DNA of 63,765 nt, counting the filler, from Rhabdomonas costata (taxonomy: Eukaryota): assembly GCA_019059605.1 (NCBI GenBank). It is 53 parts of 53 records of this genome, joined end to end, with 100 filler letters (N's around TTAATTAATTAA, not from the genome) between each part and the next. Parts side by side here need not be neighbours in the genome. Positions count along the whole stretch, not along the records: positions 1 to 1,106 come from JAHMHO010028323.1; 52 more parts are not named here. One strand, 5' to 3'. The notes beneath the pieces are model-generated. The model saw only the letters and a list, made by a program, of their open reading frames with translations. It did not search any database and was not told the DNA's origin. The position numbers and the translations under genes were made by a program. Below, one piece after another: positions 1 through 42,334 of this stretch (within the stretch, counting starts at the first letter, position 1; each line of letters opens with the position of its first letter).

Positions 1-230
1 TCTTGACTCCGCGCAAAAGCAAAAGCTTTATGGCCCAATGCCTCTGTATCCCACTCATCTACTGTAAAATATTTCGGTAGCTGATGATGCCTTTCTGAAG
101 CGAACAGGTCAATGCAAGGTGTCGCCATCAAATTGTAACACATCGCTATAAAAATTGTCGGCTCTAACTTCACTTCTTCTTCCGAACCAAACTCTGGACA
201 ATTGGCTTGTCCTACAATTGGACGCAACAT
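1..230 (-). pseudogene. Dam-like DNA N6-adenine methyltransferase domain of the DIRS-retrotransposon type, partial (runs off the contig start)
   Basis: Manual translation from 230 down to 1, not in the ORF track because it has no stop: MLRPIVGQANCPEFGSEEEVKLEPTIFIAMCYNLMATPCIDLFASERHHQLPKYFTVDEWDTEALGHKAFAFARSQ. It fits the DIRS MT pattern P.IDLFAS..N/H.QLP.Y/F....D..A...DAF...W. The catalytic NPP(W/F) motif would lie just beyond the edge. Confidence 0.75.
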
Positions 231-1100
231 TACCTCTCCGTAAGCGTTATCTTGTGTGAACCTTCTTCATCCGTCACACCATGTGGAAAGTCGTCAAAAT
301 TTACTCGCAAAGCATCAAGAGACCCCACATGTGGCCCTTGAACTGCGGCATACACAGATCTTTCATCCGTTCTCCTCTGTAACTCTCTGAAACGCTCCGC
401 CATACTGTCTCCACAAGCTTTGGCTTCGGGGGAAACCTCCACCACCTGTGGTTCCACGTACGGCTCTGGCAGATGCTCTGTAAACTGTTCGCCATCTTCC
501 GGCCATCCACTCCCTGAGCCTTCTTTGCATAACTCCTCCAGATCTGGCTCTGTACGGGTATGGTACTGCTCTGGTTCTGCTGCCACAACCTCGTCCCCTT
601 CTGGAAGCTCTGCGTCTGTGTGTCCATGTCATACTCCTCTTGTCTAGCAGGAACCTCTAAACTCTCTGGAACCACCTCACCTTCCTCTGCGTAAGGACTC
701 CACACTGGGTCTAACCCTCGAACATCTTCCTCTTTGCCTTCATCTTCTCCGTAATCCGGACTCCGCAATGGAGTCTGTCCTCCACTCGTCTCGGATATTG
801 ACATCTCTGAACTTACCTCTGAAGCGACACTCAGACCTGTGTATGGGATTGGATCATCACTTCCTCCGTACTCATCTGGAACGCTGTCCCTTGGATCTTC
901 ACTGCCGTCCGCCTCATCCTCCGGTAACATTCCCACGTGGTCGAGCACTCTCGACTCGTACGTGCTTTCCCCCGCACCTCCTGTGGAATGTCCATCACAA
1001 AGGTTGTCTCCGTAATCTTTTTAATGATGGCGAACGGTCCCACTGCTTTTGGGTGGTCTCCAAACCTCCCGTGGTAATGCTTCCGCTTACTGATCAACAC
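1..1100 (-). mobile_element. Decayed Ty3/Gypsy-like pol 3' region: integrase GPY/F module, acidic linker, Dam-like methylase
   Basis: 1100-960 encodes LISKRKHYHGRFGDHPKAVGPFAIIKKITETTFVMDIPQE (PK..GPF.I......F..D.P is the GPY/F module). Acidic ORF pieces 948-301 and 586-230 and the methylase frame follow on the same strand, with about 3 frame shifts and no splice signals. Confidence 0.65.
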
Positions 1101-1106
1101 ACACCC

Positions 1107-1351: not shown

Positions 1352-1652
1352 CTTTGCACTCCCAAGTAAGTATCCAGGTCTCGTGTGTGTGTATTCTTTG
1401 CACTCCCAAGTAAGTATCCAGGTCTCGTGTGTGTGTATTCTTATGGTGTGTTGGTGTCGAAGTGTGTCGTTGTGTCGGTTTCAGAGGTCTGTAGCAACCA
1501 TGCTCATTGTGTCAGTCAACCATGCCGTGTGTCTACCATCCCGTGTGTGTCAACCATGCTCACGATCTACCATGCTCTCAGGTTCTGTGTGTGTCAACCA
1601 TGCTCTCTGTCTCCGGTTCTGTCAACCTTGCTCTCTCTCTACCATGCTCTCT
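1352..1652 (+). repeat. 44-bp tandem duplication followed by a degenerate CAACCATGCT minisatellite
   Basis: CTTTGCACTCCCAAGTAAGTATCCAGGTCTCGTGTGTGTGTATT x2 (1352-1439), then about 7 C(A/T)ACC(A/T)TGC motifs at 1495-1652. Confidence 0.85.
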
Positions 1653-2021
1653 GTTGCTGTGTGCTTGTACGGGTTTGCAAGCATGGGGACCACCATGGGC
1701 CGGAACATGGAATGGAGCCCCCCTTTGGGACCGCCCTCCGGGCACACATGCATTGTGGGTCGGGGAGTGCAGCGGTTGGGGTCCCTTGAGCACGGGTGTG
1801 CGGCAAATCGGCGGCCATTGTACCAACCAAACTGCTGTGCCTGAGAGACTGTGAAACCCCAAGAAAGAAGCGACCAGACCTTCTGTATGGCTGGGGAAGG
1901 ACGGCATGACTGGGTGCTGGATTTGTGCTGATCCGCCAGCACGGCTGTTGCAAATCGTCGAATGCCTTGTCGTTCCTTTGCTTCTCAGCCTTGCGTCCTC
2001 TTCGACACAGCCCCAAACCAA

Positions 2022-2312
2022 ATGTCGATGTCCTACAACATGAGCGGCATGAGCATGGGCGCGATGCCGATGACCTCGAGCGGGATGCCGATGATGGGCA
2101 TGAGTGGGATGCCGATGACCAGCAGCGCGATGCCGATGGCGTCGAGCGGGATGCCGATGATGGGCATGAGCGGGATGCCCCAGGCGGGAATGATGAGCAC
2201 GGGCATGAGCGGGATGCCGATGATGAGCACGGGCATGAGCGGGATGTCCATGGCCTCGAGTGGGATGCCGATGGGGTCGAGCGGGATGCCGATGATGAGC
2301 ACGGGCATGAGC
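2022..2312 (+). CDS. N-terminus of a Met/Ser/Gly/Pro-rich low-complexity repeat protein (partial)
   Basis: Pyrimidine tract and CAG at 2008-2010, ATG at 2022, then 97 codons with high GC3 made of SGMPM repeats, open to the contig end. Confidence 0.75.
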
Positions 2313-5300
2313 NNNNNNNNNNNNNNNNNNNNNNNNNNNNNNNNNNNNNNNNNNNNTTAATTAATTAANNNNNNNNNNNNNNNNNNNNNNNNNNNNNNNN
2401 NNNNNNNNNNNNAAACATAGCAGAATCGTCACCACACGATACAGACACCACAGCACAGCACCCCAGAAACAGCCCGCGCACACAACCCCAAAAACAACAT
2501 CACGGGGTTATGCGACATGGCAGGTAAACACCAATGGCGTCGGGGTGGATGCCATGCCTTTGACCACCCACCGTGCCACAGTGGCACCACGACATGACCA
2601 CTGGGAGGGCCTAGGGATGAACCACACTACGCACCATGACGGCATGCCACAGCAATCACCGCAACAACATCAAACGTTGGACTAACAAGGCTATCACACC
2701 AAAGCCTCGGAGCGACACTATTCCAAAACCACCGAGCAGCATTCAATGCTATTACACAACGAGACACGGCGCGCCCGGGAAGGGACGAAGAGGAAGAACC
2801 AGAAGACTTGGTCATCCCGGAGGCCTCAACCGGCGCACGGTTAGCAAGGCGGTCAAGCGGGCAGCGGGGAATAACACGCGCGTGCTGGACAGGACCGAGA
2901 TGTAGTGTGGAGGACGGTAACCGCTGAGGGGGACGACGAGAGCAGCGAGCAACGCATCCCGGGGGTCGCGGGGGACTTCTCCCCTGCGCCGGTCCCCGTC
3001 CTAACCGGCGAGTACCAAGGCCCAACCCCAAGGCTCGACAAGCCGGGGCAGCCACCCGGGCTCACGTTGGGCTGCGCGACCTCCCCTCGGTAGAGGTTCT
3101 GCCCCTACTTCGGGAACCAGTTCCCCCGACCAGCGCCCCACCCTTGAGCTACGCGGGGAAACCGCATATGACGGTTCACGCCTGAACGCGGTTCCCACCC
3201 CGCGCGCCCCAGAGGACTCCAGCGCCGGGGCGCCAACCACGTACCCACAAGCGAGACTCCTATGCAACGCCGACGCGGGGAGCTGCGTGGCCCATCCCCC
3301 CCATTTTGTGGTCGTTAAAGCCGAAACGCGTCTTTAGGCGGATTTGAGGTTTTTTGGAGCTCTGGTGAGGGATTCTCGCGGCCATTTTCAATGAAAAACG
3401 GGCTTTTTTGGCCTCCAAAAGGCTTGAACAAGGGTCAAAATGAGGGAATTTTCGAGCTGTTTGGTAAAGTGGTGCTTGCTTTGCTAGTATGTGCTTGGGT
3501 TCCAATAGCCGCAAACCGNNNNNNNNNNNNNNNNNNNNNNNNNNNNNNNNNNNNNNNNNNNNTTAATTAATTAANNNNNNNNNNNNNNNNNNNNNNNNNN
3601 NNNNNNNNNNNNNNNNNNTTGTTGTTTTGAAGTCACGTGCACACGTTCTGCAGCAGAGCAAGGTTCGCGCATTGGGATAGATTGCGTTGGATTGTAAGAG
3701 CCCATCTTCTTGTTTTTATCCCCATACACACAAGAAAACGGCTTTATCGAAGACCAAGAAGGCGCACGCACGTTTTGTCCGTCCAAAGGATGTGTCAGAT
3801 GAAGGTGTGTCGTGGTGGCTCCCTGCGTCCCTCTCCCCCTTGTTCTTGGTTCTTTCCACACATTTCTCGAACTTTCCACATCTTTTTGTTTTGATTTTTT
3901 CGAAGAAGTTACGGCATCAATGCAGGGTATCAGTGCAGACAAAAGCACAGTGCTGGTGACATGACGAAAGAGCAAAAAAAAAGATGAGAAGTGGGAGAGA
4001 AAGGCAGCGAAGAGATGCGGGCCATTTTGTTTTTATCAACGCTTGTACGTGCAAATTCGCTTGAGATAACATGGATATTTTCGAGGAGCGGAGGGAGCAA
4101 AATGGAAATAATAATACAGTTGAACTGGGTACAGCACTGGTATTGGAGGGGGGGTTCATTCTTTCCTTGATGAACTTGCCTTTAGCAAATTTTTCTATGT
4201 GTGTTTCCTGCCTCAGGGTGTGTGTTTCCCACGACCTCCACTCTGCCGCCGAGGCAGGTGCTCCGGCCCCCCTCGGAGTTTGACTGGTCGGCGGCGCAGG
4301 AGGAGCTCCGCAAGGCCGCCGCGTCCACCCTAGCCAATTTCGAGGTGTCCCCTCGCATACGCGCGCATGCAAATTAGCTTTTAGTGCGGACTACGTTGTG
4401 CCGACTTTCATGAATTCTTCAAGGTAAAAGAAAATGACAAATCTGGGTTACAGTTCCCTGGGTCTGGGCCCGGCTCAGTGCACAGACCGCAAAACCTCTG
4501 GAGCGACACTGCATGGCTGTGTCTGACTGACATTGCTTTGACGTTGCTTTCCTCAGTTGCGGCCAGTTCCCCCACGCGCACGCATACCTTTCCTTTTTGT
4601 GATTCAGGCGGAGCTGACCACTTCGCCGCTTTCCCGGGACGGCGAGAGCCCACCATCGCCCCTATTCCGGAGCAGCCCGGCCGCCGAGGCCGATGCCAGC
4701 GGCGGGCAGCGCTTGTGGCCGCNNNNNNNNNNNNNNNNNNNNNNNNNNNNNNNNNNNNNNNNNNNNTTAATTAATTAANNNNNNNNNNNNNNNNNNNNNN
4801 NNNNNNNNNNNNNNNNNNNNNNCATTCTGAACGTCCAACCGACTCATCATGGGGTAGTACAAGTCCACCTGCAAAGCGAACCCGCAAGCAAGCGCGAGCG
4901 CACACATACTTTGGTATCGTCTTTTCCGCGGGGAAAAGACTACGGAAAATCACAGCAAAAAGGACAAATTTCGTCCGGCGGACAACCTGCAAGGAATGCA
5001 GGCCCGGTTTCTGTCCATCCTAACCAGAACGTATATAAGTGACACAGTGAGAAAGAATGAGAGCCACGGGAAACATCGAGGAGCAAGTAATGCTTTGGAC
5101 ACACTGTAACTTGGATATTCTCCATACACCCCGCTGCAAACCCCCGTGCCCAACCCTGTCGTCGGACTCACAACAACACAACACAACACAACACATGCGC
5201 ATGTGCGAATAGCAGTGATAATGCACCGAAAAAAGGAAGGCACAACTGAAACCCTAACCCCCCCCCATCCCGCTAAAGTGCAATACACACTTCTTTCCAG

Positions 5301-24266: not shown

Positions 24267-25613
24267 GGGGAGCAGGGAACGCGCGGACCAGACCAATAAA
24301 CCTTGATGCGACCTCTGAGCACTACACAAGCACAGAGGGCAGGGCGTGGGTGTGGGTGCAAGTGCAAGTGCTCGTTTGGCCGATCTCAGCTGTGCACGGA
24401 TCCATCTCCCCCACATGGAGAGAATCTCTCCGTCAGAATGTACGCCCTCCTCTCTTGGCAGTGCGTTGAGGTAACCATAAGGCTGATAAGCGTGCACGCT
24501 TTGAATTCAGCTCCCAAGAATTTTACGGTGAGATGAGAAACTGTCGTCTAGAAATAGGGGGTTTTCCGCCCAACCTCTCGCCCAGGGTTCTGCCTTCCCG
24601 TCTATATAAAGAGCAAGTATGAATCTAGAACCACCCACAGCCATTTAAACCACACCCAACTGATCGGCCTCGCCTTATAATAAAACTCGAAAAGAGTAAT
24701 GCAAAACGCCCATAACGCCAAAACGACTGCAGTAAGGGCCAAAACCATTGCAAAACCGACGATATAGCCGCAAACCCAATGGAAACCAGCGCAAAAACCT
24801 GGGGAAAAATACTAAAACTAATGAACCTGCCAAAAATCAGACTCATCAAACCCATCGCAAGCTGGTCAAAAATGCTGCAAAAGCACCGCCATCAGGGAGT
24901 ATTTTTTACAATATATTTTACAATCTTTCCTGGTGTCTAAAAGAAAAAACACGCAAAATCAGGTCGAAAAGCTCATGATAGTCGTTTAAAAGTGTTTTTC
25001 CACCATCCTCTTTCAGCCTCTGAGTGTGTCCCGGCGTACCCCCAGGTGGCTCATGTACCGCAGCCCCACGGGGAGCAGGGCAAGCCCCCAGCACAGCATC
25101 ACCATGCCCGCCACCCGCCCGGAGACCGCACCCGTGAAACTGGTGGCGGGCGGCGCGCCCTGCTCCATAGCCGCCACCGCGGCTGCCCCAAACCCCCNNN
25201 NNNNNNNNNNNNNNNNNNNNNNNNNNNNNNNNNNNNNNNNNTTAATTAATTAANNNNNNNNNNNNNNNNNNNNNNNNNNNNNNNNNNNNNNNNNNNNATT
25301 TTGTTATCTTCTCTCCGATGAATGGCAAACGCATTGTGTCGATGATGCCACACAAAATGCAACGAATCCACACGTACTCACATATTCCGTCCTCTGGTTG
25401 GCATCTTCATACTATTTCGACCTCAGTCTTTTAAAACAGACGTTCGAGAACAGTTTCAAGCAGACATGGGGAAACATGGCTTTGCCATAACTTTTGAGCG
25501 TGTCAACTTCAGCTTTTTCAAAGCCCCTTGCAACTGACTCCGATCTTCAGCCGGCGATCGAATACAACGGCATATGGGGGATGTCGGACAATTGCTGGTG
25601 GCAAATGAAGGTT

Positions 25614-25615
<2 letters not shown>

Positions 25616-25656
<41 letters not shown>
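25616..25656 (+). repeat. (TG)n microsatellite inside an intron
   Basis: Read directly from the sequence. Confidence 0.95.
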
Positions 25657-25657
<1 letters not shown>

Positions 25658-25700
25658 GTGAATGACCGTGTTTGGATATGCGAATCCGAGGAAGGGTTAC

Positions 25701-25944
25701 CTGCAGGGTCTGCAAACTCCACGAACCCAAACCGCTGTGGCTGTGAGTCATCCCCGGCGAGCTTGGCGTAGGTCACGGGACCGCAAGCCCGGAACAGCTC
25801 CACCAGCTGCTCCGTGGTCACCATTGAGACGATGTTGGCGACATGCACGGTACGCGCCACGTCGAACAAGTTCACCGGAGGTGCCGCCCCTGTTGCTGTT
25901 GGAGGGGTGGTCTCATCTTTGTTTGGGAACCCCGGAGGGACCTC
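25701..25944 (-). CDS. RRM-domain RNA-binding protein exon (SREK1/SRSF11- or CID8-like RRM)
   Basis: RTVHVANI...TTEQLVELFRACGPVTYAKLAGDDSQPQRFGFVEFAD contains RNP2 and RNP1; donor CAG|GTAAC. Confidence 0.88.
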
Positions 25945-26554
25945 CTGAAGCGCAAGCCCAAACACAGGCCAATGGTGCGGGTCTCCCGGTCGCGCTCGTC
26001 ACTTAGCAGCAAGGACAAAACAAATAAAGCACACGCACCCACACGCACATGCACGCATTTGGCGATGGCCAACTTTTTTCTGGGGAAGGCTTGCGATTCT
26101 CCCCCCTCCCTCTCTCCGCATTCACCCCACTCTCGAAGGGCATGGGCATATCAGGCCTCACTGTCCCCTCTGCGCCTCTCTGCCTAATACTATTAGGGCG
26201 TCCTTCTCGGGACCTACTGCCGATGGCGCGTTTTGAGTACTCTTCACAACATACACACATACACAAACACAAGCAAAAACACACAACTACATCCAGACAG
26301 CGAGACGCCGCAATGATTAAGGCTCACGAAACAAACTATTGTAAGCTATAGCTATTGTATCTTTTGGCATCTCATTGGAATGAGGTGAAAACCCAACCCC
26401 NNNNNNNNNNNNNNNNNNNNNNNNNNNNNNNNNNNNNNNNNNNNTTAATTAATTAANNNNNNNNNNNNNNNNNNNNNNNNNNNNNNNNNNNNNNNNNNNN
26501 GGGTGGTTCGTTGTCAAGTACGTTGTGGGTGCTGTCGTAAACCCTCCGCTGCGT

Positions 26555-40518: not shown

Positions 40519-41004
40519 GTGTGTGGAGTCATGTGCTGTGCATTGTTATTTTCGTGGCCTCAGCCTGTAGGAAGGTTTTCTTTTGCTGAAACAGACGAGA
40601 GATGGTCTCGGCGTCGTCACAGCCATAGCCCCTGGACCCTGGACCCAGCTGGTAGATGCCCTGGCTGAAGTCTGCTGTTGGCGGCCTGCCTTCATCCGGG
40701 CTGCGCCACAACGTAAACCCCGAAAATGTTTGGAGCTTCTTCAAAAATACCTCTTTAAAAGGCTTTTTCTTCTTCTTTTTTTTTTAAAAAAAAATAAATA
40801 TATAGCAGGCTACACCGTAAATGGAGAGTTTACACAAGCCCAAGCCTACTCGGCATAAAAACATGCCAAAAACCCCNNNNNNNNNNNNNNNNNNNNNNNN
40901 NNNNNNNNNNNNNNNNNNNNTTAATTAATTAANNNNNNNNNNNNNNNNNNNNNNNNNNNNNNNNNNNNNNNNNNNNTTTTGGTGTTATAATTATATATAA
41001 TAAT

Positions 41005-41310
41005 AATAGCAAAAATTGAAAAGATAAAGATACGCACGATGATAAATATGTTCATTGTTCAAAAGATCAAACACAATATGGCAATTTTTATTTTCATAAA
41101 CATAACAATGGTTCATACAAAAATGGAACTTTCAAAGGTGTTGATATCGTTTTAGGAAATTAAAATTTATATTGTGGTGTACTTATGCGTTCAATATCTA
41201 CATATACATATACAGATATATATATGCAGGACATATATATACAGGACCCCGTATTGGTTTATCGCACAAGTACATATTGTACAATGATAAACAATATAAA
41301 CATTCACCTC
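41005..41310 (+). pseudogene. Broken 3-methyladenine (methylpurine) DNA glycosylase-like gene of the type seen in giant viruses, inside an AT-rich island
   Basis: From 41023: DKDTHDDKYVHCSKDQTQYGNFYFHKHNNGSYKNGTFKGVDIVLGN*NLYCGVLMRSI (TAA at 41161), then in another frame IYTGPRIGLSHKY. This fits H.D.Y.H....Q...G.FYFH....SYK.GTFKG.DI..G....G.L.RS and PRIGL. Confidence 0.7.
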
Positions 41311-41725
41311 ATGCTGGAACATTGGAAATTTTATTTGATTTTATAAATCTTGGTGGTATCATTTTTATTTAATTTATTTGAATTTATTTTTAATGAAAAT
41401 ATATATGAATATGAATGAATTCGTGAATACAATTTAATGCATTGTGAACATGTGTATCTGCAAATGAATATAAATTATTTGTTAGTTTGTTCGATTTTTT
41501 AATATTATTATGTCTCAAAAAATAAATTTATATTGTCCACCATTTCTTCATATGCATTAGGATTAAAAAATATGAAGATGAATATGAATATGAATTGTTT
41601 ATTTTATTTTAAGATAAATGTATATGTTCATTACATTACATTCATATTTTTTTGGATTATGGAATTAATGCTTCTTTACTTAAATATTTTAAAGCAAAGA
41701 ACACAAATATATATAAGTAAGAAAG

Positions 41726-41783
41726 CAATGCCCGCACATTCAATGCCCGCACATTCAGCGCCCACGCATTCAGCGCCCGCACA
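41726..41783 (+). repeat. 15-bp minisatellite x4 at the AT-rich/host-like junction
   Basis: CA(AT/GC)GCCC(G/A)C(A/G)CATT units start at 41726, 41741, 41756 and 41771. Confidence 0.9.
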
Positions 41784-42334
41784 GCGGCAAAAGTCTAGCA
41801 CCGTCTTTTTTGGGGCTGTTCCTCGCCGTCATCACTTCGGGGCCTTGGTCCCATCTCTCTTTCGATTTCGTATTTGGTGGTGGGAACGTAACCGGTTTTT
41901 TGAGTCGCGCCCAATCCAAATTTTGGTATGGCTCGTAACCGTATGATAACAACCACGGTATGTTCTCCGCATTCATGCTTGAAAGAGGAGGCAGAGGGTT
42001 GGTTGTACTTGGGACTGCATCCAAACTTGAGACTTGAGACCAACATGGGCCATCAGAGGAAGACGAACCGTCAGTGTCCATNNNNNNNNNNNNNNNNNNN
42101 NNNNNNNNNNNNNNNNNNNNNNNNNTTAATTAATTAANNNNNNNNNNNNNNNNNNNNNNNNNNNNNNNNNNNNNNNNNNNNCAAAGAAAAAGCAAAGAAA
42201 AAGCAAAATGTGTGTGTGCAAGAGAACTGAAGCAAAAATCTCCAACAATTCAATTTTCCGATCAATTGTTGTCTGAAAAAGAAAAACGAAAAATTTCGGG
42301 TGCGAATTTTTGGAGATCCCTGGTCAAAGGCAAC

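What the first reader, a model, noticed from the sequence alone, without database searches (positions are those of the whole stretch)
1..1100. Gypsy-type integrase tail followed by a Dam-like N6-adenine DNA methyltransferase: a candidate methylase-carrying LTR retrotransposon
Seen: on the minus strand, a GPY/F integrase C-terminal module (PKAVGPFAI..I....F..DIP...YESR), ~230 codons of acidic linker, then EEVKL.P..F...C..L...PCIDLFASERHHQLPKYFT.D..D.EA.G..AF. The last frame is absent from the ORF track because it runs off the contig. Established: GPY/F modules belong to DDE integrases of Ty3/Gypsy elements and are often followed by a chromodomain, whereas this Dam-like domain is characteristic of DIRS elements, which use a tyrosine recombinase and have no DDE integrase. 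Inference: a Gypsy lineage here carries an adenine methylase in the chromodomain position, possibly marking its cDNA or insertion sites. Methylase capture by retrotransposons is known in some algae and protists, but I do not know this domain order from euglenids. This copy is decayed (about 3 frameshifts, a deletion of FHVS, and R where W is expected).
Basis: partly seen in the sequence, partly recalled or inferred. Interest (0 to 1): 0.82.

Follow-up and report, generated by a model that had tools for sequence, protein, structure and literature searches.

The report
Decayed Gypsy retrotransposon fragment with methylase tail
This 1.1-kb contig is a broken piece of a Gypsy-type jumping gene whose integrase is followed by an adenine-methyltransferase-like domain, a combination that is real but was described in a 2026 preprint, so this copy is an ordinary extra example.

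Summary
The window is 53 contigs of about 1.1 kb joined by N linkers, and the finding is contig 1 (1..1106). On its minus strand lie a partial Tf2-type SH3/GPY-F integrase tail (1100..963), about 230 codons of acidic linker read in two other frames, and the first ~85 residues of a DIRS-type "MT" domain (266..3) that runs off the contig.

The MT-like ORF has 69 relatives among 1.84 billion proteins (best E 1.7e-22). Public proteins P0014/P0070 match both ends of the contig colinearly. Four intact polyproteins (P0078, P0086, P0087, P0088) carry PR-RT-RH-integrase-SH3-linker-MT in one ORF that ends just after the domain. That makes a chimera, a nested DIRS insertion or a tyrosine-recombinase element unlikely.

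A model of a full domain folds as an N6-adenine methyltransferase, nearest to PCIF1 and small phage Dam enzymes.

This copy is dead: a 31-nt deletion in the SH3 module, at least two further frame changes, and R for a conserved W.

The architecture ("DAM-LTR") is reported in bioRxiv 10.64898/2026.05.21.726589, including for Euglena gracilis. Novelty is therefore low. Catalytic activity and substrate (DNA or RNA) remain open. I could test neither the organism nor LTRs.

The parts
963..1100 (-). C-terminal SH3/GPY-F module of a Ty3/Gypsy-type DDE integrase. Only the first half is kept. Codons are in phase with nt 1106.
   Evidence: Pfam SH3_Tf2-1 E 5e-4, 20.6 bits, below cutoff 30. P0014 44% identity over 50 aa. 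P0086 E 8e-9 and P0070 E 2e-9. P0078 E 2e-8.
958..965 (-). Deletion junction. About 31 nt are missing relative to P0070 and P0078. The loss removes the FH(A/V)S-type strand of the SH3 module and shifts the frame.
   Evidence: Where P0070 and P0078 have 11 residues between ...RA and YxSR, the window has 2 nt. The YESR-type continuation is read in phase 1104.
631..960 (-). Acidic linker, first part (phase 1104).
   Evidence: Open frame 1020..301. D+E 27% over 1020..631. Relatives have Asp/Glu/Pro-rich linkers of about 30 to 400 residues at the same place. No close relative of this linker was found.
267..628 (-). Acidic linker, second part (phase 1105). It is reached by a frame change near nt 630 and left by another between about nt 300 and 257.
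   Evidence: Open frame 628..230. D+E is 24% here, against 7% if phase 1104 is kept. The choice of frame rests on composition only.
3..266 (-). N-terminal ~55% of a DIRS-type MT (Dam/PCIF1-like N6-adenine methyltransferase-like) domain, in phase with the integrase tail. It is cut by the contig end before the NPP(W/F/Y) motif.
   Evidence: phmmer: 69 hits, best E 1.7e-22. P0078 48% identity over 80 aa, E 3e-20. P0070 49% over 75 aa.
96..110 (-). DLFAS motif. Reading it as motif I (the cofactor loop) is my inference from recalled Dam and M.TaqI motifs.
   Evidence: D, F and A are invariant in 22 of 22 full domains. D[LMI]FA is present in 58 of 69 hits.
9..11 (-). CGG (Arg) at a position where relatives have Trp.
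   Evidence: W is invariant in alignment A2. W is found within the +28..+38 stretch scanned in 45 of the 51 hits that reach the position.

Best explanation
Contig 1 is an internal, dead fragment of the pol gene of a Ty3/Gypsy-type LTR retrotransposon of the 'DAM-LTR' kind.

In intact relatives, Pol reads protease, RT, RNase H, integrase (H2C2 zinc finger, DDE core, SH3/GPY-F), a disordered acidic or proline-rich linker, and then a compact domain of about 150 residues as the last domain of the polyprotein. That domain is N6-adenine-methyltransferase-like, of the kind first seen in DIRS elements. It carries a DLFAS-type loop and an NPPW motif.

Shown here:
- the domain order in relatives;
- the colinearity of this contig with those relatives;
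- the methyltransferase fold of a relative's domain;
- the strong conservation of DLFA and NPPW;
- the defects of this copy.

Inferred:
- Tethered to integrase, the domain would travel with the cDNA/pre-integration complex.
- There it would methylate adenines of the new copy, as cDNA or RNA-DNA hybrid, so that the insertion carries 6mA, a mark of permissive chromatin in protists that have AMT1. This is the model of the 2026 preprint.
- This particular copy cannot do that. A 31-nt deletion breaks the integrase SH3 module, at least two more frame changes break the linker, and a conserved Trp is Arg.
For: - phmmer of the 88-aa ORF: 69 hits, 17 at E<=1e-10.
- Pfam over all 69 hits: 9 with SH3_Tf2-1, 9 with Dam, 1 with rve, none with a tyrosine recombinase family.
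- P0014/P0070 match nt 1100..963 and 236..15 in the same frame and in order.
- P0078 (1684 aa) has RVT_1, RNase H, Integrase_H2C2, rve and SH3_Tf2-1, and then matches the window's MT piece at residues 1520-1599.
- P0086, P0087 and P0088 have the same order plus an aspartyl protease.
- Both halves of the contig share the same best full-length relatives, P0070, P0086 and P0078.
- AlphaFold model of P0009 from 22 aligned domains: pLDDT 88.3.
- Foldseek against the PDB: top matches are PCIF1/CAPAM and KsgA.
- VIA-align: PCIF1 Z 11.7, Erm/KsgA Z 9-9.6, T4 Dam Z 8.9, E. coli Dam Z 8.7, M.TaqI Z 8.3.
- BFVD: small phage DNA N6-adenine methyltransferases at E 3e-8, giant-virus PCIF1-like proteins at about E 1e-6.
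- NPP[WFY] is present in 27 of the 38 hits long enough to show it. N, P, P and W are invariant or nearly so in 22 full domains.
- Preprint 10.64898/2026.05.21.726589 (Introduction, Results and Discussion read) reports DAM domains in Ty3/Gypsy elements, E. gracilis included, and more 6mA on DAM-LTR copies.
Against: - The window's own MT fragment has no Pfam hit. Its integrase tail is below the Pfam cutoff.
- Dam PF05869 never reaches its curated cutoff in any relative (best 23.4 bits and E 2.7e-5, against a cutoff of 28.1).
- No RT, DDE core, gag or LTR lies on this 1106-nt contig. No other copy is in the window.
- The genome is not held, so the element was never seen whole in its own genome.
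- No close relative of the linker was found. The nearest MT relative is only 53% identical.
- The second and third frame changes are placed by composition and open frames, not by homology.
- On function: the preprint's expression of eukaryotic DAMs in dam-deficient E. coli gave no rise in 6mA. Iyer et al. 2016 judged DIRS1 MT domains likely inactive (passages only).
Confidence: 0.85

Rival explanations
1. The identity of the element is the same, but the C-terminal domain is not a DNA 6mA writer. It is a PCIF1-type module that acts on, or merely binds, RNA. The target could be the element's own capped transcript (m6Am-like marking) or the RNA polymerase II machinery. Alternatively it is a catalytically dead mimic.
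For: - PCIF1, the cap-specific RNA adenosine methyltransferase, is the best solved-structure match: Z 11.7, 138 residues aligned, rmsd 2.8. It stands about 2 Z units above Erm/KsgA rRNA methyltransferases and about 3 above T4 and E. coli Dam. It also tops the Foldseek list.
- One of the 22 full domains hits Pfam PCIF1_WW at E 9.6e-5.
- Iyer, Zhang and Aravind 2016 (PMC4738411, passages) place the DIRS1 MT domain in the PCIF1 clade and suggest it binds template transcripts or mimics PCIF1.
- The preprint found no 6mA gain in E. coli.
Against: - Sequence profiles favour Dam: 15 of 22 domains hit PF05869 against 1 of 22 for PCIF1_WW.
- Among predicted viral structures, small phage DNA N6-adenine methyltransferases score best, E 3e-8 against 1e-6 for PCIF1-like proteins.
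- DLFA and NPPW are invariant across domains only 33-50% identical, which argues against a dead domain.
- The preprint reports more 6mA on DAM-LTR copies.
- Fold rank does not show substrate.
Confidence: 0.25
2. The juxtaposition on this contig is secondary. Either a DIRS-like element (or its MT fragment) is nested in a decayed Gypsy element, or the 1.1-kb contig is an assembly or amplification chimera.
For: - The assembly is extremely fragmented: 53 contigs of about 1105 nt.
- The linker has three reading phases and no detectable relative.
- The preprint itself allows nested insertions or assembly artefacts for some E. gracilis DAM-TEs.
- DIRS-like orders exist among relatives: P0089 and P0090 have RT then MT with no integrase.
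Against: - The same order and similar spacing (about 250-290 residues) occur in P0014/P0070, which match both ends of the contig.
- Four uninterrupted polyproteins from other sources have the same order.
- Both ends lie in the same reading phase.
- Both ends have the same nearest full-length relatives.
- The linker is acidic like those of relatives.
Confidence: 0.05
3. The frame changes are sequencing or assembly errors, and the copy is an intact, possibly active, DAM-LTR pol.
For: - The conserved positions of the MT piece are otherwise intact (D, F, A, HHQ, Y, AF).
- The three phase changes sum to zero, so the integrase tail and the MT piece are in phase.
Against: - A 31-nt loss inside the SH3 module is not a typical base-calling error.
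- The in-phase frame has 9 stops between the two domains.
- A conserved W is R.
Confidence: 0.07

Closest known systems
[quoted passage not shown]
   Same: A Ty3/Gypsy-type Pol carries a DIRS-derived adenine-methyltransferase-like domain with an NPP motif. Some lineages lack a chromodomain. Many orphan, degenerate copies exist. The relatives found here show exactly this.
   Different: - This copy is a 1.1-kb dead fragment.
- Its nearest relative in the protein collections is 53% identical.
- I could not tell whether this family, or the organism, is in the preprint's data set, because supplements are closed and no sequences are in the text.
- No chromodomain or DNMT (their 'EpiLTR' form) was seen in any relative scanned. 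The window's copy is cut before the place where such domains could follow.
DIRS1-type tyrosine-recombinase retrotransposons (MT domain of Goodwin and Poulter; recalled, cited)
   Same: The same MT domain family: DLFA...AF..W...NPP(W/F) and a C-terminal block. Two relatives, P0089 and P0090, have the DIRS-like order, RT then MT with no integrase.
   Different: - Here the domain follows a DDE-integrase SH3/GPY-F tail, not RNase H.
- No tyrosine recombinase domain was hit in any relative.
Chromoviruses (Ty3/Gypsy elements with a chromodomain after the GPY/F module; recalled, and mentioned)
   Same: An accessory chromatin- or epigenome-related module is appended to the C-terminus of integrase after the SH3/GPY-F module.
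   Different: The appended module is a methyltransferase fold, not a chromodomain. It is separated from integrase by a long disordered linker of about 30 to 400 residues in relatives.
PCIF1/CAPAM cap-specific adenosine N6-methyltransferase and small phage Dam enzymes (Pfam PF05869)
   Same: Best structural neighbours of the domain. An NPP(F/W/Y)-type catalytic motif is shared. Iyer et al. 2016 group the DIRS1 MT with PCIF1.
   Different: - No WW or helical domain of PCIF1 is present.
- Sequence similarity is sub-threshold: Dam reaches at best 23.4 bits against a cutoff of 28.1, and PCIF1_WW hits 1 of 22 domains.
- hmmsearch of the domain profile against PDB sequences found no methyltransferase.
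DNMT-carrying retrotransposons of dinoflagellates and charophytes (de Mendoza et al. 2018, PMC5890265; search listing and abstract only)
   Same: A retrotransposon has captured a DNA-methyltransferase-type domain.
   Different: Those are C5-cytosine methyltransferases, an unrelated enzyme family with a different mark.

Membership tests
Ty3/Gypsy (Metaviridae) LTR retrotransposon | Integrase C-terminal SH3/GPY-F module of the Tf2/Ty3 type | tested here: met
   Pfam SH3_Tf2-1 E 5e-4, partial and below the cutoff. It is backed by 44-48% identity over 50 aa to the SH3 modules of P0014, P0070 and P0086, E 2e-9 to 8e-9. Those modules pass Pfam's cutoff.
Ty3/Gypsy (Metaviridae) LTR retrotransposon | Pol order PR-RT-RNase H-DDE integrase | not testable with these tools
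   The contig holds only the last ~46 codons of integrase, and the genome is not held. The order is met in relatives P0078, P0086, P0087 and P0088.
Ty3/Gypsy (Metaviridae) LTR retrotransposon | Long terminal repeats, primer binding site, target-site duplication | not testable with these tools
   The 1106-nt contig is wholly internal to pol.
DAM-LTR (preprint 10.64898/2026.05.21.726589) | DAM/MT domain in the same ORF as, or directly beside, LTR-type pol domains | tested here: met
   The integrase tail and the MT piece lie 700 nt apart on one strand and in the same phase. They are colinear with P0014/P0070. In this copy the ORF is interrupted.
DAM-LTR (preprint 10.64898/2026.05.21.726589) | Match to the Pfam Dam model PF05869 at its curated cutoff | tested here: not met
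   The window fragment has no hit at E<=10. Relatives: 9 of 69 at E<=0.01 and 15 of 22 full domains at E<=1. The best scores are 23.4 bits and E 2.7e-5, against a cutoff of 28.1. The preprint's own detection threshold was not seen (Methods not read).
Dam/PCIF1-like N6-adenine methyltransferases | Catalytic (D/N)PP(Y/F/W) motif IV | not testable with these tools
   The motif lies beyond nt 1 of the contig. In relatives, NPP[WFY] is present in 27 of the 38 hits that reach the position and is invariant or nearly so in 22 full domains.
Dam/PCIF1-like N6-adenine methyltransferases | Class I SAM-methyltransferase (Rossmann-like) fold closest to adenine-N6 enzymes | tested here: met
   Tested on relative P0009, not on the window fragment. 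pLDDT 88.3. PCIF1 Z 11.7, Erm/KsgA Z 9-9.6, T4 Dam Z 8.9, E. coli Dam Z 8.7, M.TaqI Z 8.3. Phage Dam E 3e-8.
Dam/PCIF1-like N6-adenine methyltransferases | SAM-dependent adenine methylation activity | not testable with these tools
The preprint's heterologous test in E. coli was negative. Iyer et al. 2016 thought DIRS1 versions inactive.
DIRS-type tyrosine-recombinase retrotransposon | MT domain follows RT/RNase H, with a tyrosine recombinase instead of a DDE integrase | tested here: not met
   In the window the MT piece follows a DDE-integrase SH3 tail. No tyrosine recombinase family was hit in the 69 hits or the 11 longer proteins. The full element in its own genome was not seen.

The most novel reading that the evidence does not exclude
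The methyltransferase-like tail of these Gypsy integrases, and by extension the DIRS 'MT' domain, is a PCIF1-type RNA enzyme or RNA binder and not a DNA Dam. It would mark or hold the element's own capped genomic RNA, for example by m6Am-like cap-adjacent methylation that aids stability, translation or packaging. The extra 6mA reported on such elements would then be indirect. This would reconcile three things: the negative DNA-methylation assays, PCIF1 being the best structural match, and the strict conservation of NPPW.
Probability: 0.18. Interest if true: 0.65.

Novelty: new member of a known kind. Interest (0 to 1): 0.3.

Why it matters
If the domain is active, these elements carry their own writer of an 'active chromatin' mark. 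That would be a way for a transposon to escape silencing by imitating host genes.

That idea, and the existence of such Gypsy elements, is already in a 2026 preprint. This dead 1.1-kb fragment adds one more diverged family: 53% identity to the nearest known domain.

- Independent confirmation, from unannotated public protein collections, that integrase-linker-MT is a recurrent, intact, C-terminal Pol architecture.
- The observation that the best solved structural neighbour is the RNA cap methyltransferase PCIF1. This keeps the substrate question (DNA, hybrid or RNA) open and testable.

Tried and rejected
- Whole-genome search: no genome is held for this window.
The indels could therefore not be checked against reads.
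- Other copies in the window: none by tblastn or blastn, and none with full-length relatives as queries.
- Word-indexed protein search with the 88-aa ORF, longer proteins: none.
- Word-indexed protein search with the 239-aa linker ORF, near lengths: none. Both are weak negatives by the tool's own note.
- PDB by sequence with the 88-aa ORF: only chance-level rows.
- PDB by sequence with the domain profile: no methyltransephase-type match. The one row at E 9.6e-5 is a DUF4827 protein, left unexplained.
- Rfam on the whole window: no family.
- Fetching DNA of a full-length DAM-carrying element to look for LTRs:
  - P0011 against metagenome contigs found nothing.
  - P0075 returned 66 ordinary Gypsy loci, and 0 of the 66 carries the MT domain.
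  - Viral contigs gave nothing.
- Tree of the first 68 columns of the domain, 57 rows. I left out 5 near-identical cluster mates and every protein without a D[LMI]FA match or with fewer than 58 residues in the region. Resolution is low: 4 starred branches of 52. It shows only that the window groups with short fragments P0001, P0002 and P0009 and the P0003-P0008 family (SH-aLRT 93). The integrase-linked P0014/P0070 lies among the next rows of the wider, open group.
- Pfam scan of the ten longest other ORFs of the window: only an RRM.
- The organism was not determined. I did not try to trace the assembly.
Full report
**What the window is.** The 63,765-base window is not one stretch of chromosome. 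It is 53 contigs of about 1,105 nt each, joined by runs of N around a TTAATTAATTAA spacer. The finding is contig 1 (nt 1..1106), and nothing to its right belongs to it. No whole genome is held for the window. The element could therefore be studied only on this contig and through public relatives.

**Checking the observation.** On the minus strand, three phases carry the signal.

- *Integrase tail.* In phase with nt 1106, nt 1100..963 encode the first half of an integrase C-terminal SH3/GPY-F module.
  - Pfam SH3_Tf2-1 gives E 5e-4 and 20.6 bits, under the curated 30, over profile positions 22-48 of 64.
  - Alone that is weak, but the same stretch is 44% identical over 50 residues to P0014.
  - It is 48% identical to P0086 (E 8e-9) and matches P0070 at E 2e-9 with the whole window as database.
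  - It matches P0078 at E 2e-8.
  - The modules of those proteins pass Pfam's cutoff.
- *Deletion.* After ...RGKA the homology jumps to phase 1104 at ..YESR... P0070 and P0078 have 11 residues between these points (the FHA-type strand), while the window has 2 nt. About 31 nt are missing.
- *Linker.* The linker is acidic. D+E is 27% in nt 1020..631 in phase 1104 and 24% in nt 628..233 in phase 1105. It is 7% if phase 1104 is kept through nt 630..304. Composition therefore places a second frame change near nt 630.
- *Third change.* A third change lies between about nt 300 and 257, because the final frame has stops at nt 269-267 and upstream.
- *MT-like ORF.* The last ORF (nt 266..3, 88 aa, open at the contig end) is again in phase with the integrase tail. 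It holds the DLFAS motif (nt 110..96) and ...AF.F.R, with R (CGG, nt 11..9) where relatives have W.

**Is the MT-like piece more than chance?** Yes.

- phmmer against 1.84 billion representative proteins gave 69 hits at E<=1e-3 and 17 at E<=1e-10. The best was 1.7e-22 at 53% identity.
- 58 of the 69 carry D[LMI]FA.
- 45 of the 51 that reach the position have the W.
- 27 of the 38 that reach it have NPP[WFY].
- Pfam itself does not recognise the window's fragment, with no family at E<=10.

- Of the 69 hits, most of them short fragments, 9 carry SH3_Tf2-1, 9 match Dam PF05869 at E<=0.01, and 1 carries rve. None matches a tyrosine recombinase family.
- P0014 (500 aa) and its cluster mate P0070 (537 aa) have SH3, a linker of about 280 residues rich in Asp, Glu and Pro, and then the MT domain. 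They align to both ends of the contig in order.
- A cluster mate of P0011, P0078 (1684 aa), reads RVT_1, RNase H, Integrase_H2C2, rve and SH3_Tf2-1 (residues 1057-1121). It then matches the window's MT piece at residues 1520-1599 (48% identity, E 3e-20) and stops 117 residues after the D of DLFA.
- A profile search found three more such polyproteins, P0086, P0087 and P0088, each with an aspartyl protease as well.
- In 9 of 9 long relatives, Pol ends 116-141 residues after that D. The domain is thus the C-terminal module of Pol, the place of the chromodomain in chromoviruses.
- The linker varies from about 30 residues (P0087) to about 400 (P0078).
- Both halves of the contig have the same best full-length relatives.
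- A nested DIRS insertion or an assembly chimera is therefore unlikely. I give it 0.05.

Other orders also exist. P0089 and P0090 have RT then MT without integrase, which is DIRS-like. P0091 has the MT piece N-terminal to RT-RH-INT. The domain is not a general feature of the Gypsy lineage. None of the 66 metagenome loci fetched with P0075 (33-56% identical in RT-INT) carries it, although some of those loci are cut short.

**What the domain is.** I aligned 22 full domains, 33-50% identical to the first. D, F and A of DLFA, F of AF, W, Y and N of NPPW are invariant, and P, P and W are nearly so. AlphaFold on this alignment gave pLDDT 88.3 and pTM 0.83 for P0009.

| Search | Result |
|---|---|
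| Foldseek, PDB | 21 matches at E<=1e-3, led by PCIF1/CAPAM (E 2.8e-5) and KsgA/Dim1 |
| VIA-align, 48,161 chains | PCIF1 Z 11.7 (138 aligned, rmsd 2.8) |
| VIA-align | ErmC', ErmE, DIMT1, KsgA Z 9-9.6 |
| VIA-align | T4 Dam Z 8.9; E. coli Dam Z 8.7; M.TaqI Z 8.3; DpnM Z 7.6 |
| Foldseek, predicted viral structures | small phage 'DNA N-6-adenine-methyltransferase' proteins, E 3e-8 to 5e-7 |
| Foldseek, predicted viral structures | giant-virus PCIF1-like proteins, about E 1e-6 |
| Pfam on the 22 domains | Dam PF05869 in 15 of 22 at E<=1 (best 2.7e-5, never at the cutoff of 28.1 bits); PCIF1_WW in 1 of 22 |
| Domain profile, PDB sequences | no methyltransferase |

The domain is thus a compact N6-adenine-methyltransferase fold, close to both phage Dam (PF05869 type) and PCIF1. 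Reading DLFAS as the cofactor loop (motif I) is my inference from recalled Dam and M.TaqI motifs. The window's copy holds only the part before NPPW.

**What is known.**

- *The 2026 preprint.* A full-text search found bioRxiv 10.64898/2026.05.21.726589 of May 2026. I read its abstract, Introduction, all of Results and the Discussion. I did not read Methods or supplements.
  - It reports 10,030 eukaryotic DAM proteins. 53.9% are tied to retrotransposon features, and most of those are LTR elements with or without chromodomains.
  - It calls this the first identification of such domains in non-DIRS LTR elements.
  - It describes 'EpiLTRs' in E. gracilis with chromodomain, DAM and DNMT.
  - It reports more 6mA on DAM-LTR copies.
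  - Expression of eukaryotic DAMs in dam-deficient E. coli gave no rise in 6mA.
  - Its model is methylation of reverse-transcription intermediates, so that new insertions recruit host AMT1.
- *Iyer, Zhang and Aravind 2016* (PMC4738411, passages only) place the DIRS1 MT domain in the PCIF1 clade. They think it derived from cellular PCIF1 and is likely inactive.
- A search for Euglena + retrotransposon + 'adenine methyltransferase' found only the preprint. PCIF1 + DIRS + methyltransferase found only Iyer et al. and an unrelated paper.
- The GPY/F and DIRS MT literature (Malik and Eickbush; Goodwin and Poulter) is recalled, not read.

**Mechanism.** I commit to the following.

- *Shown:* this is the 3' part of pol of a Gypsy-type element whose integrase carries a C-terminal adenine-methyltransferase-like domain on a flexible linker. 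The domain's catalytic-type motifs are under strong conservation in relatives. This copy is inactivated.
- *Inferred (about 0.55 within the main reading):* the tethered domain methylates adenines of the element's cDNA or RNA-DNA hybrid in the pre-integration complex, and so seeds 6mA.
- *Rival (0.25):* it is PCIF1-like in function and acts on or binds RNA, or it is a mimic. My fold ranking favours PCIF1 among solved structures. Sequence profiles and predicted phage structures favour Dam. The data do not decide.

**Verdict.** Novelty is low: this is a new, diverged and dead member of a kind described in a 2026 preprint. Interest is 0.3. What remains open is the full element in its genome (LTRs, copy number, anything after the MT domain), the organism, and the substrate of the domain.

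Noticed in passing
window 1-63765: The window is 53 separate contigs of 1097-1122 nt joined by N runs around a TTAATTAATTAA spacer. Neighbouring segments are therefore not physically linked. GC ranges from 0.32 (40977-42081) to 0.59.
   Followed up: partly
P0061 (429 aa, public protein): A 5'-deoxynucleotidase domain (Pfam NT5C, E 1e-4, residues 77-217) lies upstream of a truncated MT-like N-terminus (residues 345-393). This is either an odd fusion or a gene-call artefact.
   Followed up: no
P0089, P0090, P0091 (public proteins): The same MT domain occurs in other positions. In P0089 and P0090 it comes after RT with no integrase (DIRS-like). In P0091 it is N-terminal to RT-RH-integrase. The module has moved between positions and element types.
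   Followed up: partly
profile of alignment A2 against PDB chain 9his_J: The MT-domain profile matches a 'DUF4827 domain-containing protein' at E 9.6e-5 over profile positions 11-90, including a D.FA-like and a Y.NP-like stretch. Unexplained.
   Followed up: no
window 1578-2364, both strands: Contig 2 carries a long imperfect repeat. It reads as His/Arg/Pro/Ala-rich units on the minus strand and as Gly/Met/Pro/Ser units on the plus strand, and is open in several frames.
   Followed up: no
window 25459-25998, minus strand: A 180-aa open frame with an RNA recognition motif (Pfam RRM_1, E 2.1e-8). It was the only clear host-gene-like hit among the ten longest other ORFs.
   Followed up: no
P0003, P0004, P0005, P0008, P0017, P0023, P0027, P0030, P0048, P0053, P0063 (public proteins): Many short, visibly broken representatives of one closely related MT family, from contigs of about 0.5-1 kb where looked up (P0003 and P0005). 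They suggest a highly repeated, decaying DAM-carrying element in some fragmented public assembly. It is the sister group of the window's copy in the low-resolution tree.
   Followed up: partly
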